DNA of 56,671 nt from a virus (IMGVR_UViG_3300014838_000024:1-56671); one strand, 5' to 3'. Numbered from the stretch's first letter, positions 1-16,442 are shown. Translations and numbers: made by a program. Notes: generated from the sequence alone by a model not told the origin.

Positions 1-228
1 CCCATCATTGATCACTTCGGTGATCGCAATTGTCGGCTCATCAGGATTCGAGCCGAAGCACGAGGTTGCTCGTTCGAGAAGGACTCTCGCTCGTACATAC
101 AACTGCCGATCAAAACCCTCGATTTGCCTAATGATCAGGATCAAGAGCACTTCCTGATTCTTGGGCATCACATAATCAGGGAAATGCTGGACATCATCCA
201 GGAGGAGTTCGCTTATGCTCACTCGTGA
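1..228 (+). CDS. Partial CDS (5' truncated), possibly a deoxynucleoside monophosphate kinase-like protein
   Basis: Frame 1 is open from base 1 to TGA at 226-228. It reads ...LIRIRAEARGCSFEKDSRSYI..., resembling the C-terminal R-x-GC-x-F-x-x-DSRSYI motif of phage dNMP-kinase-like proteins, and overlaps the next start codon. Confidence 0.45.
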   Translation, partial: PIIDHFGDRNCRLIRIRAEARGCSFEKDSRSYIQLPIKTLDLPNDQDQEHFLILGHHIIREMLDIIQEEFAYAHS

Positions 229-2502: not shown

Positions 2503-3213
2503 ATGCTCGTTTCAGATCTCTTCAGTAAGCTCTCTTTCGGAGAGCTCTCGAACCTGGCTATGTCAGGCAATGGCAGTGGTACGATCGTCACGGCTCAACA
2601 GCCTAAGCTGATCGGTTATGCCAATGATGGCCTCCTTCGGTTGCACACGAAGTTCGTCCTCAAGGAGAACGATCTCCTGTTGCAGCTGTACGAGCACATC
2701 ACGTTCTATCACCTGATCCCGAGGTTCTCGATCCAATACACTCCTCCGGTTGGGACGGTTAATGAGCCTATTCGCTACATCTTGGATTTGCCGGAAGAGC
2801 CTTTCAATGATGAATTGCTGAAGGTTACTACAATATATGATCATCTTGGAATGGAGATCCCACTTAATAACGAAGAGAAGCATAATTCGTGCTTCACTCC
2901 ACAGGTAAAGCTGCTACAAGTTCCTAACCCGGTGGATGAAAAGTTCCTCACGGTTCGGTATCAACAGCGTCACGCCAAACTTACAGGTGACTTGGAGCAA
3001 TATATCTCTCTCCCTGTATCGCTCGAAGAGGCGCTGACATCGTTTATCGCGTTCAAAGTGTTCAGCCACATGAACACAGCTGATAGCAACTCGAAAGCTC
3101 AAGAGTTCAATCAGACGTTTGAACAGCTCTGTGGTGAAGTGACGGACAGGGATCTGGTCAGTTCCAGCATATCTCAGTCCAACATCCGGTTTAGTAGAGG
3201 AGGTTGGGTCTGA
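2503..3213 (+). CDS. N4 gp67-like virion (head-tail adaptor) protein
   Basis: 236 aa directly after TerL, with LSFGELSNL N-terminus and RFSRGGWV C-terminus as in N4-like gp67. Confidence 0.75.
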   Translation: MLVSDLFSKLSFGELSNLAMSGNGSGTIVTAQQPKLIGYANDGLLRLHTKFVLKENDLLLQLYEHITFYHLIPRFSIQYTPPVGTVNEPIRYILDLPEEPFNDELLKVTTIYDHLGMEIPLNNEEKHNSCFTPQVKLLQVPNPVDEKFLTVRYQQRHAKLTGDLEQYISLPVSLEEALTSFIAFKVFSHMNTADSNSKAQEFNQTFEQLCGEVTDRDLVSSSISQSNIRFSRGGWV

Positions 3214-3560
3214 TGGGACTATGCGAAACCACCAATTATTTCGGCGGCCTTGGAGGTGAAACCCCTGGCAGGCCATACAGCTATGGGCAGGGAGGTTATC
3301 TCCAACCCTATGGTGGCGCTCGGTTTGCGCCCATGGTTGACCGACTCATTGGCAATGCTTTCCCCACTGTGAAGTTCGTCGCCGACAACATGGATTATAT
3401 CCGGTATGTCGCGGACAACATGCTAGCGATCGTCACTCTGGCCGAATCCCAGGCAACTCAGATAGCCACGCTTCAAGCGCAGATATTGGTGCTTCAAGCT
3501 CTGGTGGTCCCGAGTTCTCCGACGATTGTAGCCCCTGCTCTCTCCATGAGTTCAGATTGA
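3213..3560 (+). CDS. Truncated tail-fibre/appendage anchor protein (resembles the N-terminus of N4-like gp66)
   Basis: ATG at 3213 overlaps the gp67 stop (TGATG). MVDRLIGNAFPTVKFVADNMDYIRYVADNM resembles the virion-attachment N-terminus of N4-like tail fibres. It is followed by a short heptad segment and a stop after about 115 aa. Confidence 0.6.
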   Translation: MGLCETTNYFGGLGGETPGRPYSYGQGGYLQPYGGARFAPMVDRLIGNAFPTVKFVADNMDYIRYVADNMLAIVTLAESQATQIATLQAQILVLQALVVPSSPTIVAPALSMSSD

Positions 3561-3581
3561 GTTCGGATTGAGGAGAGCACA

Positions 3582-3953
3582 ATGGCCGAGGTGATCACGC
3601 CATATGAAACTCTGGAGGCGTTCCTCGTCGCTAATCCAGCGTCGAACCACTCCAGTTATGTGCTGACTCCTCCTCCAGCTCTCTTCTCCATTGGTGTCTA
3701 TGTCTCTGACGCTATACTTGAGCCGGTTCCGGGTGGGTTGAGTGTCTCTGTAGCAGATGCAGTGCTGGAACCTGTCGGTGGAACTGGTCCTCAACTAGCT
3801 TTTGGAGTCCCTTCACTCTCGTTCGCTTCCACAGCAGTGGGAGCCAATATCAACTTGACGGTGACAATCTCCAATCCGGGGACCGCCGATCTTGTGATCA
3901 GTTCACTGATCCCAACAGGTGACTTCACCGTCGCCACAATCGTAGAGGACTAA
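3582..3953 (+). CDS. Putative adaptor/scaffold protein: two tandem beta-strand repeats plus the N-terminal half of an ASH (choice-of-anchor D) Ig-like domain
   Basis: GAGGAG RBS; repeats GVYVSDAILEPV and SVSVADAVLEPV; C-terminus PSLSFASTAVG...TVTISNPGTADLVISSLIPTGDF. Confidence 0.65.
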   Translation: MAEVITPYETLEAFLVANPASNHSSYVLTPPPALFSIGVYVSDAILEPVPGGLSVSVADAVLEPVGGTGPQLAFGVPSLSFASTAVGANINLTVTISNPGTADLVISSLIPTGDFTVATIVED

Positions 3954-3957
3954 AGTT

Positions 3958-4374
3958 ATGGCGAATGCAGTCTATCCGAACTTCCGTAATGTTCTGCTCT
4001 CTCCGGGTGTGAACCTGGCGACGGCAGCTATCAAAGCCTGTCTTGTCACGCTCACCACGGGTACGACCAACTACACCTACTCGGCGGCCCATGCCAATCT
4101 GAGCGATGTCGCTTCGGGTTCGATCTTCGTTGCTGGTGTGGCTCTCACCTCCTTGGCGGTTTCTGCTCAGGCGCTGACCGCTGCTTCTGTCGTGTGGCCT
4201 TCGGTCGCAGTATCCGGCTCCAAGAAAGCCGAAGCGATCATTCTCTACATCGACACCGGCACGGGGAGCACTTCGACCCTGATCGGCTACATCGACACGG
4301 CCACTGGTTTGCCGGCTACGCCAACGGGTCAGAACATCACGCTGAATTGGTCTTCGTCCGTCCTGACCGACTAA
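3958..4374 (+). CDS. Small beta-rich virion fibre subunit
   Basis: 138 aa. MANAVY...AIKACLV...AEAIILYIDTG...TSTLIGYIDTATGLPATPTGQNITLNW matches a widespread family of small phage tail/fibre proteins. Confidence 0.6.
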   Translation: MANAVYPNFRNVLLSPGVNLATAAIKACLVTLTTGTTNYTYSAAHANLSDVASGSIFVAGVALTSLAVSAQALTAASVVWPSVAVSGSKKAEAIILYIDTGTGSTSTLIGYIDTATGLPATPTGQNITLNWSSSVLTD

Positions 4375-4404
4375 AGCTCGTCTCTCTGATCTGAAAACGA
4401 GCAC

Positions 4405-6330
4405 ATGACCGCACCCACAGTCGTAAGTTCTGCGTATCATCCTTGGACTGGCGCTTATCCGCTGGCCTCATCGAACACGTTTGACTCGACTGGCTGCGAT
4501 GGTGTGCTCGTTTTCTTTTTCACCCTTACGGGTGCTTCTTGGACACCTCCTCCGTCTTGTACCTATTTGGGACAGACGGCTACGCTTATTGGTCAGAGCT
4601 ATGTTTCGTCGCAGACTTCTGCGGGAACGCTCTATGCCTATATTGTTCGAGGTTTCACCCCCGGTTCCGGCACGCTTTCGGTCGCTCAGAGCTCGAATTA
4701 CGCTGACTCGGGCTGCGTCTACATCATTGGTCTGACTGGCACCCAAGCCACGCCAATTGGCAACTCGATCGTTCATGTTAGCGCCAGCCCGTCCGACACA
4801 CAGTCGGTCACTGCGTCTGCTGCCAATTCGCTCTTCATTGTGTTCGGTGGCGATGCTCAGGCCCCGTCGATCACGGTCACGCCTCCTTCGGGAGCGACAG
4901 CACTTCTCAACAACACCACAGCGACAAACAACCTGGGTAAGGTTCACAGCGTTACTGGTGTTTCTTCCGGAGCCAGTGTCTCCGAAACTTCGACGGCTCC
5001 TTACAACTACACTTCAACTGCCGTCATTGAAGTGCTTGGTTCTGGTGGTGGTTCTGGCATAAGCTTGACGCTGACGACACCTCTCTCGATTACGCCTGCC
5101 TTGGGCGCTGAGACGGTGACGATCCCGATCATTGTGAGCGCCAGTCCTCTGTCTTTGAGCCCGGCTCAGCTTTCAGGCAGTGTCACAGCACCTCTCGCCA
5201 TCACAACTTCGCCCTTGGCTTTGACCCTGGGACAAGGTGCAGGCACGGTTCTCGATCCTGTAGGGATCACGTCTGGACCCTTGAACCTTAGTGTTCTTCT
5301 TGGTTCAGGCGATAGCGTCACTCTCCCAATCATCATAAATTCTGGGCCTCTGAGTGTTCTCACTCAGCTGACGACACCGAGCTATTTGAGCTTCCCGCCG
5401 ATGGTGGCTGGGCCTCTTGCTTTGAGCGTTGTCCAAGACGCTGGAAATGTGATCCAGCCGCCTCAGATCTCGTCTGGGCCTCTCTCGTTGAGCGTTGGCA
5501 ATGGCGCTGGAAGCGTTCTCGTCACGCCGGTCATTTACTCCTACGGCCTAAATTTGAGTGTCGGGTTTATTCCCGGTGTTCCCAGTGTGATAACGCCTCC
5601 ACTGATCACCACGGCACCACTTTCGATCTCACCTCTGATGGACGCATCTGCGGTGATTGTTTTCCCTGACAACATCATCTCATGGCCATTGTCGTTGAGC
5701 ATAGGGTTCCCTGGACCCAGCAACGTAATCACTCCAGCCGTGATCACGGCTACGGCTTTGAATGTGGCTGTGAACAACCACGTTGGTGAAGTCGATGTCG
5801 CCATTGTGATCCAAGCTCCTCCTTTGTCGCTCTCGTTGGGGAACGGTTCGGGAAGCATCGCCATTCCGGTGGCTGTCTACAGTGCTCCCTTGAGTCTGAG
5901 TCTCGGGCTCACGCCGTTGAACATCATGGCACCAGTCTTGATCGTTGTGCCGCCTTTAAGTTTGTCTGTGCTCTCTTACACGGGTACGATCACAGACCCC
6001 TTGGGCATCTATGCAATCCCGCTGTCGCTCACCCTCGGGCTTCAGGTGGACACGATCATCCAGATCCCTCCTCCGATTCAAGCTCCGGCTTTGAATCTTG
6101 GGATCAATTTGACCCCTGGATACGTTTCGGACCCGGTGGGGATCTATACATTCCCGCTCTCTATATCCGTTGGTCTAGGTTCAGTGAACCTTCCAATCAA
6201 TCTCTTTGTCGATCCTCTGAAACTCTCCTGGGGTCGAGTTCCTCCTGTGTATGTTGATGCACCCAATCTGAACATCTTGGTCGGGCTTCAACATCCATTC
6301 ACTCATCCTCCGACAGTCGTAGTAGGTTAA
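4405..6330 (+). CDS. Fibre protein: N-terminal beta-rich (putative receptor-binding) domain, then about 18-19 degenerate 22-aa repeats
   Basis: About 210-aa S/T-rich globular domain, GSGGGSG linker, then repeats of xxxPLSLS(V/L)GxGxGSVxxPxxI. Almost no charged residues. Confidence 0.65.
   Translation: MTAPTVVSSAYHPWTGAYPLASSNTFDSTGCDGVLVFFFTLTGASWTPPPSCTYLGQTATLIGQSYVSSQTSAGTLYAYIVRGFTPGSGTLSVAQSSNYADSGCVYIIGLTGTQATPIGNSIVHVSASPSDTQSVTASAANSLFIVFGGDAQAPSITVTPPSGATALLNNTTATNNLGKVHSVTGVSSGASVSETSTAPYNYTSTAVIEVLGSGGGSGISLTLTTPLSITPALGAETVTIPIIVSASPLSLSPAQLSGSVTAPLAITTSPLALTLGQGAGTVLDPVGITSGPLNLSVLLGSGDSVTLPIIINSGPLSVLTQLTTPSYLSFPPMVAGPLALSVVQDAGNVIQPPQISSGPLSLSVGNGAGSVLVTPVIYSYGLNLSVGFIPGVPSVITPPLITTAPLSISPLMDASAVIVFPDNIISWPLSLSIGFPGPSNVITPAVITATALNVAVNNHVGEVDVAIVIQAPPLSLSLGNGSGSIAIPVAVYSAPLSLSLGLTPLNIMAPVLIVVPPLSLSVLSYTGTITDPLGIYAIPLSLTLGLQVDTIIQIPPPIQAPALNLGINLTPGYVSDPVGIYTFPLSISVGLGSVNLPINLFVDPLKLSWGRVPPVYVDAPNLNILVGLQHPFTHPPTVVVG
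5070..6290 (+). repeat. Degenerate protein-level tandem repeat (about 66 nt / 22 aa)
   Basis: Units such as TSGPLNLSVLLGSGDSVTLPIII, SSGPLSLSVGNGAGSVLVTPVI, QAPPLSLSLGNGSGSIAIPVAV and YSAPLSLSLGLTPLNIMAPVLI. Confidence 0.85.
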
Positions 6331-6331
6331 C

Positions 6332-6583
6332 ATGACCTGGACTCCAGGAAGCGCAGTAACTCCTCCGCTTACAATTCCCGCTGGTGAGAGCGTCACTGTG
6401 ACGGTGAAGTTCACCCCAACGGTGGCTGGAGCTCAGACTGGCTCGCTTGGAATAATGTCCAATGCTCCTTCAAGTCCAGATGCTCTACCTTTGTCAGGTA
6501 CTGGAACCAGTGGGACTACACCTGCACCAGCAGTTTCCCTTTCGGTCACTTCGTTGACCTTCCCCAGCACGGCGGTTGGATAA
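6332..6583 (+). CDS. Small linker protein: C-terminal half of one ASH domain plus the first strands of the next
   Basis: LTIPAGESVTVTVKFTPTVAGAQTGSLGIMSNAPSSPDALPLSGTG, then PAVSLSVTSLTFPSTAVG*. Confidence 0.7.
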   Translation: MTWTPGSAVTPPLTIPAGESVTVTVKFTPTVAGAQTGSLGIMSNAPSSPDALPLSGTGTSGTTPAPAVSLSVTSLTFPSTAVG

Positions 6584-8010
6584 TGGCTACTTCGGCTTCT
6601 CAGCGGATCACGCTTACAAACACCGGCACTGCTCCCTTGGTGATCTCTGGGATCACAGCTACGGGTGATTTTGCCGATGTCACCGACTATTCCGTGTCGG
6701 TTCTCGCTGGCGGTGTCTGCCATATCGACGTGACTTTCACTCCCCTAGCTGTGGGTTCTCGAACAGGTACGATCTCAATCGCCTCCAATGCGCCTGGATC
6801 TCCTCATGTCGTGACCTTGGGAGGCACAGCAGTTCCTGCGGTTTTGCCAAGGGTCTCTGCCTTGGGAAATCAGTTCATGGCTGCCGGTGCTCCCATTCGT
6901 TTGAAGAGCATCAATTGGACTGGTGGCGAAGGCACCAATTATGCGCCTCATGCTTTGTGGGCTCGTTCTTGGAAGAGCCAGCTCGATCAGTTCAAAGCCA
7001 TGGGTTTCAATTGCTTGAGGTTCCAGCTTTCTGGTGACTTCTGTGCGAATCCCTTGATCACATCCACAGCTATTGATCCCACGAAAAACCCTGATGTTGT
7101 GGGCCTTACGACCTTGGCTTTCTTGGATCTGATTGTCGCCTACTGCAACACGATCGGCATGTATATCGTGCTTGATCATCACAGGTGTTTTGCCTCTGGA
7201 GGCACAGGCACCGATGGTTGGCCAATGGCCGGTGGGGCAACTGGCTCTTATAGCCAGGCCCAGTGGATCACCCACTGGTCAGTGCTCGCCACTCGATATG
7301 CTTCCAGCACGGTGGTCATTGGTGCTGACGTTCACAACGAGCCCTATGCGATTGAGTGGGCTTATTGGGCTCCGATGGTTGAAGCCTGCGGTAATGCTAT
7401 CTTGGCGATTGCGCCAAATTGGCTGATCTTCGTCGAGGGTGACACCAATTGGACTGGTGCAGCTTATTACCCCACAGCAACGCTGACGAGCGACTCGATC
7501 TGGTGGGGTGGGCAGCTTATTGGCGCTCAGCCTGGCAACCGACCCATTGTGCTCTCGTCTCCCAATCATGTGGTCTATGCGCCTCACGAGTATGGAACAT
7601 CTGTATCTGGCCAGACTTGGCTGGCAACCTCATCGAGCGCACCTACTGGGTGGCCAAACAACCTTCAACCGATGTGGAGACAGCATTGGGGTTGGGCTTT
7701 CGAACAGAACATCGCTCCGATCTGGGTTGGTGAGTTCGGAGGACAGTTTGGTTTCGCCAATGCGACAGGTGCAGCCAATGGCAATGCCAATGCACCCACA
7801 GAGATCGTCTGGCTACAGACACTCATGAAGTATTTGAATGGTGATTGGAACGGAGACGGCACCAATCATCTCACTGGTTCGCAGTTGGGTATGTCATTTG
7901 CCTACTGGAATGACATGCTGAGCGGTGATACAGGGTCTCTAGTCATCGACAACGATCTCACAACGCCTCAGAGTGGCAAACTAGCCCTCCTCACCCCGCT
8001 CATCCCGTAA
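6583..8010 (+). CDS. GH5 endoglucanase (cellulase) with an N-terminally incomplete ASH Ig-like domain
   Basis: GH5 motifs: INWTGGE, MGFNCLRF, IVLDHH, DVHNEP (acid/base Glu), NWLIFVEG, WWGG, VVYAPHEYG, PIWVGEFGG (nucleophile Glu), SGDTG. No signal peptide. Confidence 0.93.
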   Translation: MATSASQRITLTNTGTAPLVISGITATGDFADVTDYSVSVLAGGVCHIDVTFTPLAVGSRTGTISIASNAPGSPHVVTLGGTAVPAVLPRVSALGNQFMAAGAPIRLKSINWTGGEGTNYAPHALWARSWKSQLDQFKAMGFNCLRFQLSGDFCANPLITSTAIDPTKNPDVVGLTTLAFLDLIVAYCNTIGMYIVLDHHRCFASGGTGTDGWPMAGGATGSYSQAQWITHWSVLATRYASSTVVIGADVHNEPYAIEWAYWAPMVEACGNAILAIAPNWLIFVEGDTNWTGAAYYPTATLTSDSIWWGGQLIGAQPGNRPIVLSSPNHVVYAPHEYGTSVSGQTWLATSSSAPTGWPNNLQPMWRQHWGWAFEQNIAPIWVGEFGGQFGFANATGAANGNANAPTEIVWLQTLMKYLNGDWNGDGTNHLTGSQLGMSFAYWNDMLSGDTGSLVIDNDLTTPQSGKLALLTPLIP

Positions 8011-8019
8011 GAGGGCTCC

Positions 8020-8370
8020 ATGACAACCGCACAAGAAGCCAACTTCACTGTTACTCTGACCCCTGCTCCTACGGTTACAGTGCTGCTCAACTACACCACA
8101 AGGGATGGAACGGCCACTGCTGCCAGCGGAGCTTACACTTTAACTTCAGGAGTGTTGACCTTTGCTCCAGGTGAAACCGTGAAACACGTCATTGTTCCGG
8201 TCAGTCTGCCTCTTGCGCCAGGTTCTGCCGCTGAACTCTTCTATCTCGATGTGACTTGGCCTTCTGGTTCGGTTAACACGATCACACGCAGTCCAGGTAT
8301 TTGTAACCTTCCAGGCAATACAACTACCCCACTGCCTTCTGTCTCTATCTCTAGTCCTTCGGTGGTGTGA
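8020..8370 (+). CDS. Calx-beta domain protein lacking its first strand and ending in a Calx-beta-like first strand
   Basis: FTVTL...VLLNYTTRDGTATAASGAY...SGVLTFAPGETVKHVIVPV; C-terminus LPSVSISSPSVV. Confidence 0.85.
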   Translation: MTTAQEANFTVTLTPAPTVTVLLNYTTRDGTATAASGAYTLTSGVLTFAPGETVKHVIVPVSLPLAPGSAAELFYLDVTWPSGSVNTITRSPGICNLPGNTTTPLPSVSISSPSVV

Positions 8371-8373
8371 TCC

Positions 8374-11199
8374 ATGACAACCTTCAGCACAACTCGTATT
8401 GCAAACTTCGTGGTCACGCTCAGTGCAGCGGCCACGGCAGCTTGTTCGGTCAATTACGCCACGGTCGATGGAACTGCCATTGGTGGAACCGACTACCAAG
8501 TGACCACGGGCGTTTTGAACTTCGCCATCGGTGACATCACCAAGACGATCCCTGTGCCTTTGAATGCACTTTCGGTTGGTGGGCTCACTTTCGATATGCT
8601 CTTGTCCTCTCCCGTGGGCTGCACGATCACCACTGGCGAAGAAGGCATCGCCACCATTGGCGTCGTCACTCCTCCGGTCACGTATTTGAGCCGGTTCGAA
8701 TGGACCTATAATACGCTCAAGCTGACCACGAACGGCTATTTTGGTCCCACCACGGGAGGATCTACCCTCGCCTTTCAGTGCCCTTACCATGCACGCGAAA
8801 ACGCTATTATCGTTGAAGCTCCTGACTGGTGCCATGAGAGCGTTTCCGAGACGATCTCTTTCTGGGCCAAACTGGAAGCCTGGAAGACGATTGTCGATGG
8901 CACAACCACAGGCATGGCTGCCTGCTGGGCTTCGATCGAGGCGAATTATATTCCCACTCCCACAGTTGGTCAGCTTTGGGGAGCTTATACTCCTGCTTCT
9001 CCCGCAGGTTATGAGCCTGACGCTGCCACGATCGCTTTGACCCCGGTTGATTACAATACGACAGTGACGGTTGGCGCTGATCCGCTCTACACCGAGCTCG
9101 TTGCCGCCTACACCGGCAAAGACGTGTATCTGATGCACTGGCTCTATGATGTGGACGGAGCCTATGGTTTCCATGGCGCTGATGGCACCACAAAGCTCAT
9201 GGCTCCGATCAACAACTACCAACGTGGCCCGGTCGAAGATGGCTTGGCCACGATCACGCACTGTTGCTACGAGGACTACAAGAACGGTGGTCAGCCTATT
9301 GGTGCGAGCGGGTTTGGCTTCTTGCCAATTTATGACCAGGCTCCTCCGACTTATTCGAGCAGCGCCAACCCCTACTCTTACAGCGCCCAGTGGACGTATT
9401 CTTGCGCCCCTGACGCTGAGAGTCGGGCTATTGGAGCCATCTATGCGGCTCACACGCTCTCTACGGCGGCAGGCATTGCACCTATTGCCACGAAGTCTAT
9501 GAAGATGGCCGATTATATGCGGTACGCCTTCTACGACAAGTACTTCGTGCCGATCCACAATTATGCTGGCACGCTCATGAATGGTGCTGGCAAACACTAT
9601 CTGCTCAGCTGGGGTGCTGGCTTTGGTGGCGGCATCATCGTGCCTCCAGGCACGGCTTCCTATTGGGGCTTTCGCATTGGTTGTTCAGAGGTTCACTTTG
9701 GGTACAACTGCGTCGATGTGGCTTATGCCTGCATGACGGGGCAGGATTTCGCGCCTCTGGGAGCCACAGCTGCTGCTGATTATGCGACATCCTTGGATCG
9801 ACAGCTTGAATTGATCCGTTGGCTTCAAAGCCCTGCTGGACCGATTGCTGGTGGTGTGACCTCCAACTGGAAGGGTGTCTATGGCACCCCGACAGATGCT
9901 CGTGTGAGCGCCCAGTTCTATGGGATGAACTACACTTATTCTCCGAGCTGGCATAACCCGCCTTCGAACAACTGGACTGGCTATCAAGCATGGGGCCTCG
10001 GAAAAGTCTCGCAGCTTTATGCGACAGTCTGCCAGAAGACCGACACAGTGTCGTTGAGCCTGATCACTCGCTGTGGTGTGATCTTGGATCTGTGGGTTCA
10101 GTGGTTCTACACCAATTGCGTAATGGACCTCGTGAACGGTTCGATGGCCTATCCGATCAACTCGTCCTGGACGAGCCCTACGGTTGTGAGTGGTCATACT
10201 TCGACAGTTGCCACAGCAGCGGGTGACTATGAGTATTTGCCCACGTTGAACTGGGACTCGACTGGAAATTACGCTACCTTCTGGTCGGCGAGTGCTGTCC
10301 CGAACCCGAACCTGCTCTATACGACCACATCGACTGGCTGGGATCCTGGAACAGCTGCTGGCTTTGCTCAGGTTCTCATCCAGTATGCTTATGCCAAGTC
10401 CAAGCTCACTGGTTCTTTGACGGGTATAATCCCCGGAGGAACAGCTACATTCCAACAAGTGCTGACCAAAGCCCAGCAAATGATGGAAGTTGTCTGGTGG
10501 AACCAAGATCCAGTTGGGTTCGGTTCCATTGGTTCGCTTGCTCTTCCGAGACTGAACGACATTCTCTGGATCCCGACTCAGTTTGGGACTGGTGCAATGC
10601 CTAATGGAGAAGTGCTCGCTCACGGTGTGACGACTTTCAAGAGCGCCAGAATGAGCCTCTATTCGACGACTGCCAACTGGTCTGGTGTGCAGACCTATCT
10701 GGCAGCAGTTGCAACGGCTTATCCGACGATCTCTGGTATGTGGGTGGCCAATAACGCTCCTGCTTTGAACGCTGCTTTGAATACGATCGCAGCTGACACG
10801 ACACTTCCGATCGCTCCTTCGGTCAACTACCATCGGTTCTGGAATGGTGCTGATGTGGCTGTGGCTTTCGCTATGTTCCAGCAGTATTTCCCGACACTGG
10901 CGGTGCCCACATTCACCACGCCTTTCTCGCCTTGCTGGGTCAATGCTCAGATCAATTACGCTGTGTTCTTGGCGACAGAGTATGGATCCACCACAACCAC
11001 CAGAACAGCAGCAAAAGCTGCTTGTCTGACGGCTTTGACCAGCACTCTAATGAGTGGAGCTCAGGTGACTGCCATGACAACGGCAATCAACACCTGTGTC
11101 GATGCTTGTGTGGCAGCTCTGGCCACCCCAGCGACCTATGCAACGGTGTCAGCAGCGGCAATTGCCACGGGTATTACGGCTGCACTCGCTGCAATGTAA
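8374..11199 (+). CDS. Calx-beta + glycoside hydrolase family 48 (processive exo-cellulase-like)
   Basis: GH48 motifs in order: PYHARE..IVEAPDWCHESVSE, YLMHWLYDVD, INNYQRG, QWTYSCAPDAESRA, KMADYMRYAFYDKYF, HYLLSW, FRIGCSEVHFGY, SLDRQLELIRWLQS..GPIAGG, FYGM, YHRFW..DVAVA. N-terminal Calx-beta VNYATVDGTAIGGTDY. Confidence 0.93.
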   Translation: MTTFSTTRIANFVVTLSAAATAACSVNYATVDGTAIGGTDYQVTTGVLNFAIGDITKTIPVPLNALSVGGLTFDMLLSSPVGCTITTGEEGIATIGVVTPPVTYLSRFEWTYNTLKLTTNGYFGPTTGGSTLAFQCPYHARENAIIVEAPDWCHESVSETISFWAKLEAWKTIVDGTTTGMAACWASIEANYIPTPTVGQLWGAYTPASPAGYEPDAATIALTPVDYNTTVTVGADPLYTELVAAYTGKDVYLMHWLYDVDGAYGFHGADGTTKLMAPINNYQRGPVEDGLATITHCCYEDYKNGGQPIGASGFGFLPIYDQAPPTYSSSANPYSYSAQWTYSCAPDAESRAIGAIYAAHTLSTAAGIAPIATKSMKMADYMRYAFYDKYFVPIHNYAGTLMNGAGKHYLLSWGAGFGGGIIVPPGTASYWGFRIGCSEVHFGYNCVDVAYACMTGQDFAPLGATAAADYATSLDRQLELIRWLQSPAGPIAGGVTSNWKGVYGTPTDARVSAQFYGMNYTYSPSWHNPPSNNWTGYQAWGLGKVSQLYATVCQKTDTVSLSLITRCGVILDLWVQWFYTNCVMDLVNGSMAYPINSSWTSPTVVSGHTSTVATAAGDYEYLPTLNWDSTGNYATFWSASAVPNPNLLYTTTSTGWDPGTAAGFAQVLIQYAYAKSKLTGSLTGIIPGGTATFQQVLTKAQQMMEVVWWNQDPVGFGSIGSLALPRLNDILWIPTQFGTGAMPNGEVLAHGVTTFKSARMSLYSTTANWSGVQTYLAAVATAYPTISGMWVANNAPALNAALNTIAADTTLPIAPSVNYHRFWNGADVAVAFAMFQQYFPTLAVPTFTTPFSPCWVNAQINYAVFLATEYGSTTTTRTAAKAACLTALTSTLMSGAQVTAMTTAINTCVDACVAALATPATYATVSAAAIATGITAALAAM

Positions 11200-11228
11200 A
11201 CTGAGTTCTTCAAATATACGTCTAATTT

Positions 11229-11264
11229 GGGGGAAGCTTGTACAAAGCTTCCCCCTAGTTATTT
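11229..11264 (+). terminator. Probable intrinsic terminator after the cellulase module
   Basis: Hairpin GGGGGAAGCTT-GTACA-AAGCTTCCCCC followed by TAGTTATTT. Confidence 0.65.
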
Positions 11265-11282
11265 AGAGTTGTACTCAAGGTC

Positions 11283-11311
11283 TATTGTACTTCTTCTGAA
11301 CCAGCTATAAG
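11283..11311 (+). promoter_or_regulatory. Candidate sigma70-type late promoter
   Basis: TATTGTAC...CTATAA in an AT-rich intergenic gap between a terminator and the next operon. N4 late genes are transcribed by host RNAP. Confidence 0.35.
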
Positions 11312-11341
11312 CAAATTGGTATTCAGAAGAGGTGAACCACA

Positions 11342-11713
11342 ATGGCTGATCAATGGCAGACAGGGGTAATACCTCCGAACGCAGCTGACGTGCAGACGAC
11401 CCCCAATGAGCTGACCGTTTTGACGGATGGCTCCATTGCAGGAGCGAACCTGGTTACGAACCAGAACGCTGCCATCGGAACTTCGGCGACACTCATTGTT
11501 GCTGCTCGTCCTGGAATTCCCGGTGTCGGGCGAAAGAGCCTCACGATCACCAACAAGGGTTCTAGCCCGGTCTTCATCGGCAATGCCGGTGTGACGGCTG
11601 CCACAGGCACCGAGATTCTGCCCGGCACCTCCAGAGATTTCATTACCTTCGTGGCGATTTACGGCGTCGTGGCTTCGGGCACTGGCTCTGTCGATTACGT
11701 CGAAATTTTCTGA
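11342..11713 (+). CDS. Small beta-sandwich virion protein (spike/decoration-like)
   Basis: GAGGTG RBS; RKSLTITNKGSSPVFIG...TGTEILPG...IYGV pattern seen in small phage structural proteins. Confidence 0.55.
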   Translation: MADQWQTGVIPPNAADVQTTPNELTVLTDGSIAGANLVTNQNAAIGTSATLIVAARPGIPGVGRKSLTITNKGSSPVFIGNAGVTAATGTEILPGTSRDFITFVAIYGVVASGTGSVDYVEIF

Positions 11714-11725
11714 GGAGAACCTCCA

Positions 11726-12250
11726 ATGGCCGACGATACTTCAGGCGTGATCTCTGCTGATCCGATCATTGTCAACACTGGCATTGATCCAAATGGGATC
11801 GTTCGTGAGAACTCCCCTCGTCGTCAGAAGAGCGAGATTGTTTGGCGGGATGCCGCCAACAACATCTGGAAGACCAAGCTCTATGAGGGTGGCCCTACTG
11901 GTGGTGAAACCAGTGATCTTGAACTCGTGAGTTCAGCCACCCCTGGTGTTCTGCCGGCTGGTCCTGTGCCTGTTCCAGTTTGCCCGTATCCTCCGATGCT
12001 CATCCAAGAGCTCAAATACGTGCAGGATGTCGGCCTCAAGTCGAGGCTCTCTCCCAAGAGTACTTCTGGCGTCAAGACTGGCCAGATTTATTGGCGGGAT
12101 CTCGCCAACAACCTTTGGCTCACCGAGTCTTTCGAAGACATCGCCAAAGAGACCTTCTCCGTGGACACCCTTATTGCAGCTGCCGTTCAGGGGGTTCCCC
12201 CGGCTGTGCCTGTGGTGTCTCCCATTCCCACTTCATCTTCTACCAGCTGA
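11726..12250 (+). CDS. Hypothetical protein with an internal domain duplication
   Basis: GAGGAG RBS; IVWRDAANNIWKTKLYE versus IYWRDLANNLWLTESFE, each followed by a Pro/Val-rich tail. Confidence 0.7.
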   Translation: MADDTSGVISADPIIVNTGIDPNGIVRENSPRRQKSEIVWRDAANNIWKTKLYEGGPTGGETSDLELVSSATPGVLPAGPVPVPVCPYPPMLIQELKYVQDVGLKSRLSPKSTSGVKTGQIYWRDLANNLWLTESFEDIAKETFSVDTLIAAAVQGVPPAVPVVSPIPTSSSTS

Positions 12251-14198: not shown

Positions 14199-16442
14199 AT
14201 GGATTATAAAACCACCAGTGCGATGGAACCGAATGTCAACGGTAACGACAGCGACATGCAGTTCCAGCAGGCGGAAAGTGTCTCCACAAAGCTCACCGAG
14301 TGGACGAACGAACCGTGCGTGGAAGATCTAAAGCGGGATCTCGAAGCGGCAAGACCTCACCACACCACCCAGATGGCGCTTATCGAGGCATGGAATGATC
14401 TGCTCCATGTTCGAGGCAAAGCCAAACCTCCGGAAGTCAAGGGACGTTCTCGTGTCCAACCAAAGCTCATTCGGCGTCAAGCTGAGTGGCGCTATTCGGC
14501 GCTGACAGAGCCTTTCCTTGGCTCAGACAAGCTCTTCAAGGTCGATCCTGTGACTTTTGAAGACGCTGACGCAGCTGAGCAGAACGAGCTTGTTCTGAAT
14601 TGGCAGTTTCGAACCAAGATGAACCGAGTCAAGTTCATCGACGATTATGTTCGTTCCAATGTGGACGAAGGTACCTGTATCGTTCGAGTGGGCTGGAAAC
14701 GAGTCACAGTCAAAGTCAAGCAGCAAGTTCCGGTATGGTCTCACCATGCAATGACGGACGAAGCGAGTGCTCAGAAGCTTCAGCAGGCTCTCGCTTTGAA
14801 GCAGGAAAATCCTCGTGGATATTCCGAGCAGGTTCCTCCTGAAATCCAAGCGGCTGTGGACTACTATGAAGAGTCCCAGATCCCTACGGTTGCAGTTCAA
14901 ACTGGCACCCAGGAGGTCATGGTCGAGAAAGCTATCGAGAACCGACCCACAGCTGAGGTGCTTTCTCCTGAGAACGTGGTCATTGATCCTTCGTGCAATG
15001 GTGACATCGACAAAGCGAATTTCTGTGTGATCTCTTTTGAGACCTGCAAGGCAGAGCTCCTAAAGGAACCAGACAAATACAAGAACCTTGAGCATGTCGT
15101 CTGGACTTCGAACAGTCCTTCGACAGAGCCGAACCATGCCACCCACACCCCAGCTGACTTCGTGCTGAACGATGTCGCTCGTAGGAAAATCGTCGCCTAC
15201 GAATATTGGGGTTTCTGGGACATGGAGAACGATGGGAAGCTCGTTCCCTTCGTTGCCACTTGGATCGGTGCCACGCTTATTCGATGCCAGGTGAACCCTT
15301 ATCCTGACGAGAAGCTCCCCATTGTTTTGGTTCCTTACATGCCCAAGAAGCGGGACTTGTATGGTGAGCCTGACGCTGAGCTCCTGAAGGACAATCAACG
15401 AATTCTCGGTGCTGTAACTCGTGGCATGATCGACTTGCTCGGTCGAAGCGCCAATGGTCAACAAGGCATTGCTAAGGGAATGCTCGATCCATTGAATCGT
15501 CGGCGTTACGAGAATGGCCAGGATTATGAGTTCAACCCGAGCATGACGCCTACTCAGGGGATCATCGAACACAAATATCCAGAGATGCCAAACTCGGCTC
15601 TCGCTATGGCCCAGATGGTCAACTCGGAAGCCGAAGCTCTCACAGGTGTGAAGAGTTTCTCGGGTGGATTGTCTGGTGACTCTTATGGGCAGGTTGCAAC
15701 CAACACCAAAGACGTGGTGGATGCAGCTTCGACCAGAGAGATCGCCATCCTGAGACGACTCGCCAAAGGCATGTCGGAAATTGGTACGAAGATCATCTCC
15801 ATGAACTGCGAATTCATGTCCGAGGAAGAGACTGTTCGTGTGACGAACGAGATCTTCGTCAAGGTAAAGCGTGAAGACCTCAAAGGAAACTTCGATCTTC
15901 AGGTCGATATTTCAACTGCCCAGGCTGACAACGCCAAAGCCCAGGATCTTGGCTTTCTTCTTCAGACGATCGGCCCCAATGCAGGCCAGGAAATCACCAT
16001 GATGATCATGAGTGAGATCGCCAAACTGAAGCGGATGCCTGTGCTTGCTCACAAGTTGAAGACTTATCAGCCGCCTCCGCCCACGCCTGAACAGCAGCAG
16101 ATGCAGCAGCTCCAGCTTGAAGAGCAACAGCTCAAGGTACAGAAGCTCCAGGCTGAGATTCAGCTCCTTGGTTCAAAGGCTGGTGAGATCTCTTCTAAGA
16201 AAGATCTAATGGACTTGGACTACGTTGAACAAGAGAGTGGGACTAAACATGCTCGTGACATGCAGAAACAGCAGGCACAGAGTGAAGGCAACCAGAATCT
16301 TGCTGTAACTAAGGCTCTTACGAGTCCCCTTAAAGATGGACATAAAGCTCCTAATCTTGAAGCGGCCATCGGTTATAATGCACTTAGTGCTAAATTGGGG
16401 GGAGGAAGCACCCCTCAACCTCAAAATAGTCTTGGCTCCTGA
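14199..16442 (+). CDS. Portal protein (N4 gp59-like)
   Basis: [53 protein letters not shown] and [14 protein letters not shown], as in N4-like portals. Confidence 0.93.

What the first reader, a model, noticed from the sequence alone, without database searches (positions are those of the whole stretch)
3213..11199. Candidate 'phage cellulosome': a multi-gene appendage assembled by beta-strand complementation of split Ig domains
Seen: each ASH or Calx-beta domain in the locus is incomplete, and the missing piece lies in another small gene. The 3582 C-terminus and 6332 N-terminus together make one ASH domain. The 6332 C-terminus and GH5 N-terminus make a second ASH domain. The 8020 C-terminus and GH48 N-terminus make a Calx-beta domain. 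The 8020 protein itself lacks a first strand, and 3582 and 3213 carry orphan Calx-like first strands. The genes are intact and have RBS-like sites or coupled starts. Established: donor-strand complementation builds chaperone-usher pili, and scaffoldins tether endo- and exo-cellulases in cellulosomes. Inference: a branched assembly running anchor (3213) -> adaptor (3582) -> [6332 -> GH5] and [8020 -> GH48], a cohesin-independent way of mounting monomeric enzymes on a phage tail.
Basis: partly seen in the sequence, partly recalled or inferred. Interest (0 to 1): 0.92.

Follow-up and report, generated by a model that had tools for sequence, protein, structure and literature searches.

The report
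Phage cellulase appendage with split domains
An uncultured N4-like phage carries two cellulases on a tail appendage whose small immunoglobulin-like domains are divided between separate genes in the same way in related phages, which suggests the parts snap together by sharing beta-strands.

Summary
The window is a 56.7-kb N4-like (Schitoviridae) contig. Between the terminase and the lysis genes lie an anchor (3213-3560), an adaptor (3582-3953), an arm-like protein (3958-4374), a repeat fibre (4405-6330), an 83-aa linker (6332-6583), a GH5 (6583-8010), a small Calx-beta protein (8020-8370) and a GH48 (8374-11199).

The adaptor ends with the first half of an ASH domain, and 6332 begins with the second half. 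That break point recurs in 11 distinct adaptor sequences. In three relatives the partner gene starts exactly with the missing half. All 13 phage Calx-beta N-termini examined lack strand A. Strand-A-like peptides are conserved in the adaptor and at the C-terminus of 8020.

Independent assemblies and a 97.7%-identical strain from another study argue against sequencing error.

A GH5/GH48 cellulase pair on an N4-like phage is already known from Erwinia phage S6. "Cellulosome" is therefore a loose analogy.

The best reading is a non-covalently assembled appendage joined by a split Ig-like domain and by donor strands. The exact wiring is untested: the one complex prediction gave no verdict, and the single-chain folds were of low confidence.

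Rating: new variant of a known kind, of moderate to high interest.

The parts
2503..3213 (+). Virion structural protein, counterpart of S6 gp097. It forms the upstream border of the appendage locus.
   Evidence: phrog_2125, E 3.5e-72. 42% identical to S6 gp097.
3213..3560 (+). Anchor: the N-terminal virion-attachment module of N4-type appendages, followed by a short coiled-coil-like stretch. Its C-terminus is ..PALSMSSD.
   Evidence: phrog_29955 'appendage', residues 42-95 on profile 22-74 of 556, E 3.7e-7. PDB 9lc0 '60 kDa protein' residues 23-77, E 1.9e-7. S6 gp096 residues 12-78, 40% identity. The ATG at 3213 overlaps the upstream TGA.
3582..3953 (+). Adaptor: an N-terminal F..NP..NHSS motif, two orphan strand-A-like peptides, then the first half (strands A to C') of an ASH/PapD-like Ig domain, which ends at the stop codon.
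   Evidence: Pfam ASH positions 12-56. A family of 117-133 aa proteins all end at ..PTGDFxVxxI..*. The half-ASH is the most conserved region of the protein: 0.65 mean pairwise identity against 0.38 for the linker.
3690..3773 (+). Two donor-strand-like peptides within the adaptor (residues 37-48 IGVYVSDAILEP and 53-64 LSVSVADAVLEP).
   Evidence: Present in 2-3 copies in all 8 adaptors aligned. They resemble canonical Calx-beta strand A, such as LTVADASVVEG in P0007. Equivalents occur in L020, S6 gp095 and Hena1 gp204.
3958..4374 (+). 138-aa 'arm'-like small tail protein.
   Evidence: phrog_644, E 1.3e-23. PDB 9d93 'Tail wing arm, gp31', E 1.1e-9. 81% identical in L010. Always followed by a protein with the 4405-type N-domain.
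4405..6330 (+). Fibre protein: an N-domain of about 210 aa with weak 'minor tail protein' similarity, then about 17 repeats of 22 aa (PLSLSxGxxxGxVxxPxxIxxx), spanning about 5080-6219.
   Evidence: phrog_553, E 1e-5. Repeat spacing of 22 aa. In L010 the homologous N-domain and 5 repeats are fused to the second half of the ASH domain and to GH5.
6332..6583 (+). 83-aa linker protein: the second half (strands D to G) of ASH domain 1 (residues 1-58), a Thr/Pro linker, and strand A of ASH domain 2 (residues 66-83).
   Evidence: Pfam ASH positions 60-97. 59% identical to the internal segment of the L010 767-aa protein and 46% to the N-terminus of the L073 1145-aa protein. In giant tandem-ASH proteins, query residues 9-83 map as one contiguous slice.
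6583..8010 (+). GH5 cellulase-family enzyme, preceded by ASH domain 2 without its strand A (residues 1-85).
   Evidence: PF00150, E 1.7e-37. DUF1573/HYDIN Ig from profile positions 18-20. Catalytic Glu in NEP (E253) and GEFGG (E384) aligned to S6 gp095 E570 and E689.
8020..8370 (+). Small Calx-beta protein that starts at strand B and ends with a conserved strand-A-like peptide (residues 106-116, nt 8335-8367).
   Evidence: PF03160, 37.5 bits, profile 21-78. A family of 112-116 aa proteins with a conserved C-terminus LPxVSISNPxV*. The C-terminal strand has 0.67 identity against 0.36 for the linker. In the AF2 model of the protein alone, the tail 93-116 has pLDDT 30-42.
8368..8376 (+). Junction TGA TCC ATG: an in-frame stop, one codon, then the start of the GH48 gene.
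   Evidence: Same layout in L010 (TGA CCT ATG).
8374..11199 (+). GH48 enzyme with an N-terminal Calx-beta domain lacking strand A, and a C-terminal Ala/Thr-rich extension of about 100 aa.
   Evidence: PF02011, E 2.1e-128. Calx-beta profile 23-83. 39-41% identical to the GH48 of S6 and 16 other Erwinia phage records. Glu159 aligns with S6 Glu155.
11229..11255 (+). Terminator-like hairpin (11-bp stem, 7 GC pairs) that closes the locus.
   Evidence: The other terminator-like hits in the region have weak 5-7-bp stems inside coding sequence.

Best explanation
The locus encodes a multi-subunit tail appendage of an N4-like phage. It displays a GH5 and a GH48 glucanase, homologous to the cellulose-receptor enzymes gp095 and gp094 of Erwinia phage S6.

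The subunits are separate polypeptides, translated from one operon with coupled starts, and they join non-covalently by completing each other's beta-sandwich domains.

Joint 1, conserved across a clade. The adaptor (3582) supplies strands A-C' of an ASH/PapD-like Ig domain, and the next module (here the 83-aa protein 6332) supplies strands D-G. Both sheets of the sandwich would then be built from two chains.

Joint 2, seen only in this lineage. The C-terminal strand A of 6332 completes the ASH domain at the N-terminus of the GH5 protein.

Joint 3. The Calx-beta domains of 8020 and of GH48 start at strand B. They are completed by donor strands drawn from the two SVxDAxLEP peptides of the adaptor and from the C-terminal SVSISSPSVV of 8020.

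The anchor (3213) fixes the whole assembly to the tail through the N4 gp66-type N-terminal module. 3958 and 4405 form a further arm-plus-fibre branch.

What is shown: domain content, the positions of the breaks, their conservation, and the integrity of the genes. What is inferred: that the halves associate, and which donor fills which acceptor.
For: Break in ASH domain 1 at the same loop.
- 11 distinct adaptor sequences end right after ..TGDFxxxxI(4-6 aa): the window, L010, L013, L070, L073 and P0113-P0118. P0114 and P0115 are near-duplicates.
- In L013, L070 and L073 (3 of 3) the next gene overlaps by ATGA and begins M(TE/S)ITIPPFGS.., which is the missing half.
- Pfam coordinates are complementary: window 12-56 plus 60-97; L010 1-52 plus 50-95.
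- The half-domain is the best-conserved part of the adaptor (0.65 against 0.38 for the linker).

Unsplit forms exist in L020, L059, S6 gp095 and Hena1 gp204. The two halves are therefore parts of one domain type.

Sequencing error is unlikely.
- L007-L010, from four metagenomes, are 100% identical across their version of the locus.
- Run X2, from another study, holds one 16.4-kb contig spanning 3200-11200. It has 185 substitutions, and its 8 gaps all lie at 4773-4816 with a net length change of 0. There is no indel at 3953, 6330, 6583 or 8370.
- P0001 (98% identical, 116 aa) and P0012 (96% identical over the N-terminal 110 residues searched, 941 aa) keep the same lengths.

Calx-beta.
- 13 of 13 phage N-termini lack strand A.
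- The small-protein family keeps a conserved C-terminal strand after a variable linker.
- In Hena1 the small protein gp202 has the same design (..AVISISDAVITQV*) but lies downstream of GH48. The strand therefore cannot depend on read-through into GH48.
- Orphan SxSD[AG]V-type peptides occur in the GH5 chain or its adaptor in all 5 genomes that carry GH48: the window, L010, L020, S6 and Hena1. In S6 the peptide may instead be the first strand of a complete domain. I saw none in the L070 and L073 proteins, which have no GH48, or in the one L013 protein listed (sequences read; the pattern scan did not include them).

AF2 model of 8020 alone: the core has pLDDT 63-88 and the C-terminal 24 residues have 30-42. 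No fold-back in cis was predicted.

Structural precedent: in podophage A1002 a second protein supplies the missing beta-strands of a split nozzle, and fibre dimers dock on a 'rope' by beta-sheet augmentation (PMC13730344; passages and section 11 read).

The enzymes look active. The catalytic Glu residues are conserved.
Against: - No structure or interaction evidence exists. The read-through fold, used as a cis proxy, does turn residues 107-117 into a strand, but only at pLDDT 44-49. The alignments were shallow (7 rows).
- In S6 the only donor-like peptide (LSVSDGVI, residue 265 of gp095) may simply be the first strand of a complete domain. A strand-A-less Calx-beta domain may therefore be stable on its own.
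- Donors (3-4) outnumber acceptors (2).
- In L010 the second ASH half lies inside a 767-aa protein, which makes the geometry harder to picture.
- The 4405|6332 and 6332|6583 breaks are seen only in the window's own lineage (the window plus the X2 strain). They could be recent and neutral, or mildly harmful.
- dN/dS between the two closest adaptor alleles rests on only 6 differences (omega 0.36).
- There are no transcript or virion proteome data.
Confidence: 0.6

Rival explanations
1. The ASH split is real, but the donor-strand idea for Calx-beta is wrong. The strand-A-less Calx-beta domains are stable by themselves. The repeated SVxDAxLQ peptides and the C-terminus of 8020 serve another contact, for example docking the 3958 'arm' protein by beta-sheet augmentation, as rope proteins do in chain-like fibres.
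For: In A1002 and GP4, a rope protein docks small fibre subunits of 140-170 aa by beta-augmentation (PMC13730344). 3958 is 138 aa and is the most conserved protein of the locus (81% identical to its L010 homologue). It follows the adaptor in the window, L010, L084 and L088/L089. S6 has no clearly orphan donor.
Against: The peptides co-occur with GH48/Calx-beta in 5 of 5 genomes, including L020, S6 and Hena1. No 3958 homologue was found in those three: tblastn found it only in L007-L010 and L059, and no Erwinia phage appears among the 10 organism names itemised (one further name is not listed). The peptides resemble canonical Calx-beta strand A in sequence. L059 has a 3958 homologue but a complete-ASH adaptor without such peptides.
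Confidence: 0.18
2. Translational recoding joins some pieces. Read-through of the in-frame TGA at 8368 would make an 8020-GH48 fusion with a complete second Calx-beta domain. A shift at the TAATG of 6581-6585 would join 6332 to GH5. The short forms would be by-products or a second isoform.
For: TGA, one codon and ATG in the same frame occur both in the window and in L010, 2 of 2 lineages with DNA. The read-through product has canonical spacing of strand A to strand B. In the AF2 read-through model residues 107-117 become a strand.
Against: Hena1 has the small protein downstream of GH48. GH48 genes of S6, L020 and Hena1 start at the same point with their own ATG and nothing upstream to read through from. 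No slippery heptamer is visible at 6575-6585, and no Rfam element was found. Recoding cannot bridge 3582 to 6332, which lie 2.4 kb and two genes apart. Stop codons at ordinary gene ends are a mix of TAA, TGA and TAG, so there is no reassignment.
Confidence: 0.1
3. Gene decay. An S6-like single hydrolase gene was broken by an insertion and by point changes. The small ORFs are dying fragments, and only the catalytic proteins matter.
For: Fused forms exist in S6, Hena1 and L020. The 4405|6332 and 6332|6583 breaks are limited to one lineage.
Against: The fragments are conserved as ORFs of constant length across lineages with 42-71% identity, and the half-domain and terminal strand are their best-conserved parts. 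Stops and starts sit exactly at the domain breaks with coupled starts. Frame 2 upstream of 6332 is closed right up to the ATG. Without joints, GH5 and GH48 would have no link to the virion anchor.
Confidence: 0.08
4. The breaks are artefacts of sequencing or assembly.
For: The window is a metagenome contig of modest depth: 6-9x mean word depth in the run that is probably its source.
Against: A contig from another study and habitat label, 97.7% identical, has no indel at any junction. The L007-L010 version of the locus was assembled identically from four metagenomes. The same breaks occur in many diverged sequences.
Confidence: 0.02

Closest known systems
Erwinia phage vB_EamP-S6 (Schitoviridae) gp096-gp095-gp094. 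S6 uses bacterial cellulose as its first receptor.
   Same: Same genome position between terminase/gp097 and the lysis genes. Same enzymes (GH5 43% identical, GH48 41%). The GH48 also begins at Calx-beta strand B. The N-terminal ..HSSR motif is at the start of the GH5 chain (PMC9544554, passages).
   Different: In S6 the GH5 chain is one 782-aa protein with whole Ig domains. S6 has no small Calx-beta protein, no 3958/4405 genes and no clearly orphan donor peptides.
Split nozzle and chain-like fibres of Pseudomonas podophage A1002 (also GP4 and VP1).
   Same: A phage tail domain is divided between two genes and rebuilt when one protein supplies the missing beta-strands. Small subunits dock on repeated sites of a carrier by beta-sheet augmentation (PMC13730344, passages and section 11).
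   Different: The domains are different (beta-propeller/platform, not ASH or Calx-beta), the phage family is different, and no enzymes are mounted. Here nothing has been solved structurally.
Donor-strand complementation in chaperone-usher pili (recalled from general knowledge; no paper read).
   Same: An Ig-like fold lacking one edge strand is completed by a strand of the neighbouring subunit, giving chains of subunits.
   Different: In pili the missing strand is the C-terminal G strand and the donor is an N-terminal extension. A periplasmic chaperone and an usher are needed. Here the missing strand is N-terminal strand A of Calx-beta, or half a domain for ASH, and no chaperone or usher family was hit in the locus.
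'Genes in pieces' of T4-like phages: split nrdA, DNA polymerase and topoisomerase genes (recalled; PMC2988022 seen only in a search listing).
   Same: An insertion divides a gene, and both parts stay functional by associating as separate chains.
   Different: Those insertions are homing endonuclease genes in enzymes. Here the inserted genes are tail proteins, no endonuclease or intron was detected, and the split is a recurrent joint between modules.
Branched multi-protein adsorption devices of N4-like and other phages (G7C gp63.1/gp66, Moo19 gp81/gp82, B2 gp48/gp49, CBA120).
   Same: Enzymatic tailspikes are attached to the virion through a separate protein, and the N-terminal residues of about 10-74 bind the tail (PMC11654681 passages; PMC9569702 passages).
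   Different: Those use whole 'tail spike attachment' domains of trimeric spikes. A divided Ig-like domain or donor strands are not described in the passages I read.
Cellulosome (cohesin-dockerin scaffolds; recalled).
   Same: An endo-type GH5 and a GH48 are held together on a common carrier.
   Different: No cohesin or dockerin is present. The likely substrate is the host's own cellulose coat, for infection rather than plant biomass (by analogy with S6).

Membership tests
ASH / PapD-like Ig domain (PF15780, DUF1573, HYDIN-type Ig) | Sequence match to the family profile | tested here: met
   6332: ASH E 4.2e-6, 27.3 bits against a cut-off of 27. GH5 N-terminus: DUF1573 31.8 bits against 26.1. 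3582 only E 0.016, but 0 of 2000 shuffles reach its alignment to the GH5 N-terminus.
ASH / PapD-like Ig domain | A complete seven-strand domain within one polypeptide | tested here: not met
   3582 covers profile positions 12-56 only. 6332 covers 60-97 only. The GH5 N-terminus starts at 18-23. The L010 pieces cover 1-52 and 50-95.
Calx-beta (PF03160) | Profile match above the gathering score | tested here: met
   8020: 37.5 bits. GH48: 37.1 bits. Cut-off 27.
Calx-beta (PF03160) | N-terminal strand A (profile positions about 1-20) in the same chain | tested here: not met
   Matches start at profile positions 21 and 23. 25-31 residues precede the DGTA core in 13 of 13 phage proteins, against 35-42 where my strand-A pattern is found in canonical domains.
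Glycoside hydrolase family 5 | Profile match and both catalytic glutamates | tested here: met
   PF00150 E 1.7e-37. E253 (NEP) and E384 (GEFGG) align to S6 gp095 E570 and E689. Activity and substrate were not tested.
Glycoside hydrolase family 48 | Profile match and the catalytic acid | tested here: met
   PF02011 E 2.1e-128. E159 aligns to S6 gp094 E155. The Asp of the APDAE motif is conserved, though my numbering differs by 3 from the paper's D331.
Chaperone-usher type donor-strand complementation | An incomplete Ig-like fold completed by a strand from another subunit | tested here: inconclusive
   Incomplete domains and conserved candidate donor strands are present. Association is not shown.
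Chaperone-usher type donor-strand complementation | A dedicated chaperone and usher | tested here: not met
   No such family among the Pfam hits of the ten locus proteins at E up to 1.
Cellulosome | Cohesin and dockerin modules | tested here: not met
   No cohesin or dockerin hit in the ten proteins.
Genes in pieces created by homing endonuclease or intron insertion | An endonuclease gene or self-splicing intron at the split | tested here: not met
   3958 and 4405 hit only tail-protein families. No Rfam family at E up to 0.1 in 3000-11600.
Chain-like fibre (rope plus small fibre dimers; GP4, A1002) | A small fibre subunit of the Gp80 fold, and a carrier with repeated docking sites | tested here: inconclusive
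   3958: no Pfam hit. The Atlas lead to a Gp80 cluster scores only 0.87. PDB hit to Bxb1 gp31 'tail wing arm', E 1.1e-9. 4405 has about 17 repeats of 22 aa. However, L059 pairs a 3958 homologue with a protein that has no such repeats.
Programmed stop-codon read-through | An in-frame stop conserved with the downstream frame, and a product spanning it | tested here: inconclusive
   The in-frame TGA layout occurs in 2 of 2 lineages with DNA. The gene order in Hena1 argues against need for it. The product is not testable here.

The most novel reading that the evidence does not exclude
A divided ASH domain and strand-A-less Calx-beta domains with matching donor peptides form a standard 'plug and socket' set. 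A clade of N4-like phages uses it to hang monomeric enzymes on one anchor, and to swap them by recombination. For the GH5/GH48/small-Calx cassette, Hena1-type myoviruses use it too. The enzymes seen are GH5, GH48, GH18 and GDSL esterases. In this phage the result would be the branched chain anchor -> adaptor -> (6332 -> GH5) and (8020 -> GH48), plus an arm-and-fibre branch. That would be the first donor-strand or split-Ig assembly system described for receptor-binding proteins of a virus.
Probability: 0.3. Interest if true: 0.8.

Novelty: new variant of a known kind. Interest (0 to 1): 0.62.

Why it matters
If the halves really assemble, this is a compact, genetically separable joint for attaching monomeric enzymes to a phage tail. 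Known tailspike attachment modules work differently.

It would explain how these phages exchange depolymerase modules without touching the virion-binding part.

It would give phage engineers a small connector, about 50 plus 50 residues or a 10-residue donor strand, for mounting new enzymes.

It also suggests how the GH48 of the studied Erwinia phages S6 and Hena1 could be held on the virion. The papers I read do not explain this.

The enzymology itself, a GH5 plus GH48 pair acting on bacterial cellulose as a receptor, is already known from S6.

Tried and rejected
Complex prediction. I submitted three chains: 3582 residues 1-72, GH48 residues 1-100, and 8020 as the partner. The verdict was 'no answer'. 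The median score was 0.53. A control with the GH48 piece replaced by an unrelated protein scored 0.76, and controls with 8020 replaced scored 0.00.

Fold-back in cis (circular permutation) of 8020. The AF2 model of 8020 alone leaves residues 93-116 at pLDDT 30-42, so I found no support for it. With only 7 rows in the alignment it is not excluded.

Read-through fold. A strand appears at 107-117 but below pLDDT 50. I treat this as weak.

Stop-codon reassignment. I rejected it because ordinary gene ends use TAA, TGA and TAG.

Recent frameshift debris at 4405|6332. I rejected it because frame 2 has stops right up to the ATG.

Searches that gave nothing useful:
- GH5 protein against viral contigs found no relative.
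- tblastn of 3582 and of 4405 against GenBank phages found no match.
- megablast of the locus found no match.
- The adaptor profile against viral contigs found only one new short contig.
- The N-terminal GH48 search was swamped by generic Calx-beta proteins.
- The whole-library search with 6332 was swamped by giant tandem-ASH proteins, so it says nothing about small stand-alone relatives.
- PDB search with the 4405 N-domain gave only a chance Fab hit.
- Pfam found nothing for 3958, 4405 or the anchor.
- Tandem Repeats Finder sees no DNA-level repeat in 4405.
- Rfam gave no hit.

dN/dS between L088 and L089 rests on too few changes: adaptor 3 synonymous and 3 non-synonymous, omega 0.36; 3958 homologue omega 0.05.

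Literature. Searches for 'donor strand' + 'tail fiber' + 'bacteriophage' + 'Ig-like' gave 0 papers. 'strand complementation' + 'bacteriophage' + 'tail' gave 11 papers, none on phage tail assembly by their titles. 'Calx-beta' + 'bacteriophage' + 'glycoside hydrolase family 48' gave 8 papers holding at least 2 of the 3 terms; by title and abstract start, none describes this. That is the basis for saying I found no prior description. Subscription journals and supplementary files were not searched.

Full report
WHAT THE WINDOW IS. The window is a whole IMG/VR virus record of 56,671 bases, estimated to be 77% complete. It has the layout of an N4-like podophage (Schitoviridae). It encodes a large terminase at 907-2496, 63% identical to gp098 of Erwinia phage S6. 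It also has a portal-sized ORF at 14199-16442 and a 3754-aa ORF at 25604-36868, the size of a virion RNA polymerase. The finding lies between the terminase and the lysis/portal block. In S6 that position holds gp097 (virion protein), gp096, gp095 (GH5 'hydrolase', 782 aa) and gp094 (GH48, 809 aa).

THE GENES. All are on the + strand:
- 2503-3213: phrog_2125, the counterpart of S6 gp097.
- 3213-3560: anchor.
- 3582-3953: adaptor.
- 3958-4374: phrog_644.
- 4405-6330: repeat fibre.
- 6332-6583: 83-aa linker protein.
- 6583-8010: GH5.
- 8020-8370: small Calx-beta protein.
- 8374-11199: GH48.
A strong terminator-like hairpin follows at 11229-11255. Stops and starts are tightly coupled: TGATG, TAAagttATG, TAAcATG, TAATG and TGAtccATG. 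Stop codons are a normal mix, so there is no sign of a changed genetic code.

CHECK OF THE OBSERVATION. Pfam places the end of 3582 on ASH profile positions 12-56 and the start of 6332 on positions 60-97. The GH5 protein starts at positions 18-23 of the ASH-type profiles. 8020 starts at Calx-beta position 21 and GH48 at position 23. The 3582 hit alone is weak (E 0.016). However, both halves align to the matching halves of the ASH sequence at the GH5 N-terminus, and 0 of 2000 shuffles reach either score. The 6332 C-terminus likewise aligns to the strand-A region of 3582.

A search of 1.8 billion representative proteins with 6332 hit giant tandem-ASH proteins. In them, query residues 9-83 map as one contiguous stretch. 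6332 is therefore an out-of-register slice: half a domain, the linker, and the next first strand.

For Calx-beta, my strand-A pattern starts 35-42 residues before the DGTA core in canonical domains. It was found in 89 of the 263 cores that passed my filters, so the pattern is strict. The 13 phage proteins examined have only 25-31 residues there. An alignment with canonical proteins P0006 and P0007 shows the missing LSITDVSVVEG-type strand directly. The claimed orphan strand at the end of 3213 recurs in two other lineages but not in L010, and it stays doubtful.

ARE THE BREAKS REAL? The terminase brought in 80 related loci. Four contigs from four metagenomes (L007-L010) are 100% identical over their version of the locus. 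Public run X2, from another study, holds one 16.4-kb contig that covers 3200-11200. It has 185 substitutions, and its 8 gaps all lie at 4773-4816 with a net length change of zero. There is no indel at any junction. The table of substitutions was cut, so I could not read every stop codon in that strain. However, proteins P0001 (98% identical, 116 aa) and P0012 (96% identical over the N-terminal 110 residues searched, 941 aa) keep the same lengths. Sequencing error is very unlikely.

CONSERVATION OF THE SPLITS. This is the main result.

(a) The adaptor family. Eleven distinct sequences share one design: the window, L010, L013, L070, L073 and P0113-P0118, of which P0114 and P0115 are near-duplicates. 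Each has an N-terminal F..NP..(N)HSSR motif and ends a few residues after ..TGDF, in the middle of an ASH domain.

(b) In L013, L070 and L073 (3 of 3) the next gene overlaps by ATGA and begins M(TE/S)ITIPPFGS.., which is exactly the missing half. It continues into GH5 and further enzyme domains.

(c) In L010 the adaptor is followed by the 3958 homologue. Next comes one 767-aa protein made of the 4405-type N-domain, five 22-aa repeats, the second ASH half and GH5. The 3582|second-half split is therefore old. The 4405|6332 and 6332|6583 breaks are peculiar to the window's lineage.

(d) Unsplit forms exist. L020 has a 930-aa protein (NYSSR motif, two LSIS[DN]GVI peptides, a whole Ig-like region, GH5, GH18). 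L059 has a 177-aa adaptor with a whole ASH domain. S6 gp095 and Hena1 gp204 are also unsplit.

(e) The half-domain is the best-conserved part of the adaptor, with mean pairwise identity 0.65 against 0.38 for the linker.

THE CALX-BETA SIDE. The 8020 family comprises P0001-P0005 and the L010 protein, 112-116 aa and 61-98% identical to 8020. Every member starts at strand B and ends with LPxVS[IV]SNPxV. The terminal strand is as conserved as the core (0.67 against 0.70), while the linker before it is not (0.36).

Every phage GH48 I could read starts at strand B: the window, L010, L020, S6 and Hena1.

In the myovirus Hena1 the same cassette occurs: gp204 with a C-terminal GH5, gp203 GH48, and gp202, a 117-aa strand-A-less Calx-beta protein ending ..AVISISDAVITQV. 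There the small gene lies after GH48, so its terminal strand cannot owe its conservation to read-through into GH48.

Orphan peptides of the type SxSD[AG]V[IL] are found in the GH5 chain or its adaptor in all five GH48-bearing genomes. I saw none in the L070 and L073 proteins, or in the one L013 protein listed; these phages have no GH48 (sequences read; the scan did not include them). In S6 the single such peptide may be the first strand of a whole domain, which weakens the case.

STRUCTURE PREDICTIONS. AF2 on 8020 alone gives a core of moderate confidence (pLDDT 63-88) and a tail, residues 93-116, at 30-42. No fold-back in cis is predicted. Reading the in-frame TGA through gives a two-domain model in which residues 107-117 become a strand, but only at pLDDT 44-49. 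I treat this as weak.

3958 is the most conserved protein of the locus. It matches the 'tail wing arm' gp31 of mycobacteriophage Bxb1 (PDB 9d93, E 1.1e-9). By the passages I read, gp31 sits on a wing base protein and not on other tail proteins (PMC12646305). 3958 is always followed by a protein with the 4405-type N-domain, whatever follows that domain: repeats here, or a beta-helix-like region in L059. 4405 carries about 17 repeats of 22 residues. I read 3958 and 4405 as a further arm-and-fibre branch. A rope-and-dimer 'chain-like fibre' as in GP4 and A1002 is possible but not shown.

MECHANISM PROPOSED. The anchor binds the tail through the N4 gp66-type N-terminal module (phrog 'appendage'; PDB 9lc0; the link of 9lc0 to N4 is my recollection). 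The adaptor binds the anchor, probably through the HSSR motif; this is an inference from its position at the N-terminus of the GH5 chain in S6 and L020. The adaptor's half ASH domain pairs with the half carried by the next module, and from the fold topology both sheets would be mixed (inference). The strand A of 6332 completes the GH5 N-terminal domain. 8020 and GH48 are held by donor strands. The enzymes keep their catalytic glutamates. By homology with S6 they probably cut a cellulose-like coat of the unknown host during adsorption (PMC9544554).

WHAT IS KNOWN AND WHAT IS NEW. Several things are already in print:
- the GH5/GH48 pair on an N4-like phage;
- multi-protein tailspike complexes in Schitoviridae (PMC11654681, PMC9569702);
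- a phage tail domain rebuilt from two gene products, and docking by beta-sheet augmentation (PMC13730344).
My three literature searches found no description of a conserved divided ASH domain as a joint between receptor-binding modules, or of strand-A-less Calx-beta domains with matching donor peptides. I therefore rate it a new variant of a known kind. Supplementary files of the papers were not available and might hold relevant domain maps for S6 or A1002.

VERDICT. Confidence is higher for the ASH joint, lower for the Calx-beta donor strands, and low for the exact wiring. Interest is 0.62.

Noticed in passing
L026 14183-14338; L050 18968-19147; L061 19121-19345; L063 12419-12643: Tiny ORFs of 51-74 aa consist of little more than the ..F..NP...NHSSR motif. 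They lie far downstream in other N4-like relatives, as if the docking motif alone were kept as a gene.
   Followed up: partly
window 10900-11196: The GH48 protein has a C-terminal extension of about 100 aa, rich in Ala and Thr. It is absent from the S6, L010 and L020 homologues (809-846 aa against 941 aa). Its function is unknown.
   Followed up: no
window 5080-6219; L010 13988-14330; L089 1874-2943: The 22-aa PLSLS repeat of the 4405 family varies in copy number: about 17 in the window, 5 in L010, and at least 15 in L089.
   Followed up: partly
L020 13923-16715; L073 13382-16819: The distal chain carries different enzyme sets in relatives: GH5 + GH18 in L020, and GH5 + ASH + GDSL lipase/esterase in L073. 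This is module shuffling behind the same N-terminal joint.
   Followed up: partly
L002 (Erwinia phage Hena1) 4803-9819: A myovirus of another subfamily carries the same GH5 / GH48 / small Calx-beta cassette as the N4-like phages, fused to a baseplate protein. This looks like transfer of the cassette between tail types.
   Followed up: partly
window 4773-4816: The 97.7%-identical strain in run X2 has a cluster of five small indels here (net change 0) inside the N-domain of 4405, amid dense substitutions at 4438-4672. It is a local hypervariable patch.
   Followed up: no
window 11342-11713 and 11726-12250: Two small ORFs (123 and 174 aa) lie between the terminator-like hairpin and the lysis-type genes. 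They have no match in the 80 related loci. 11342 has only a weak PHROG hit (E 0.0011).
   Followed up: no
window 3200-11200 (runs X1, X2, X6, X7): Near-identical sequence was laid from runs labelled permafrost, freshwater and peat metagenomes, from four studies. The phage lineage seems widespread in cold wetland or freshwater settings. The host is unknown.
   Followed up: partly
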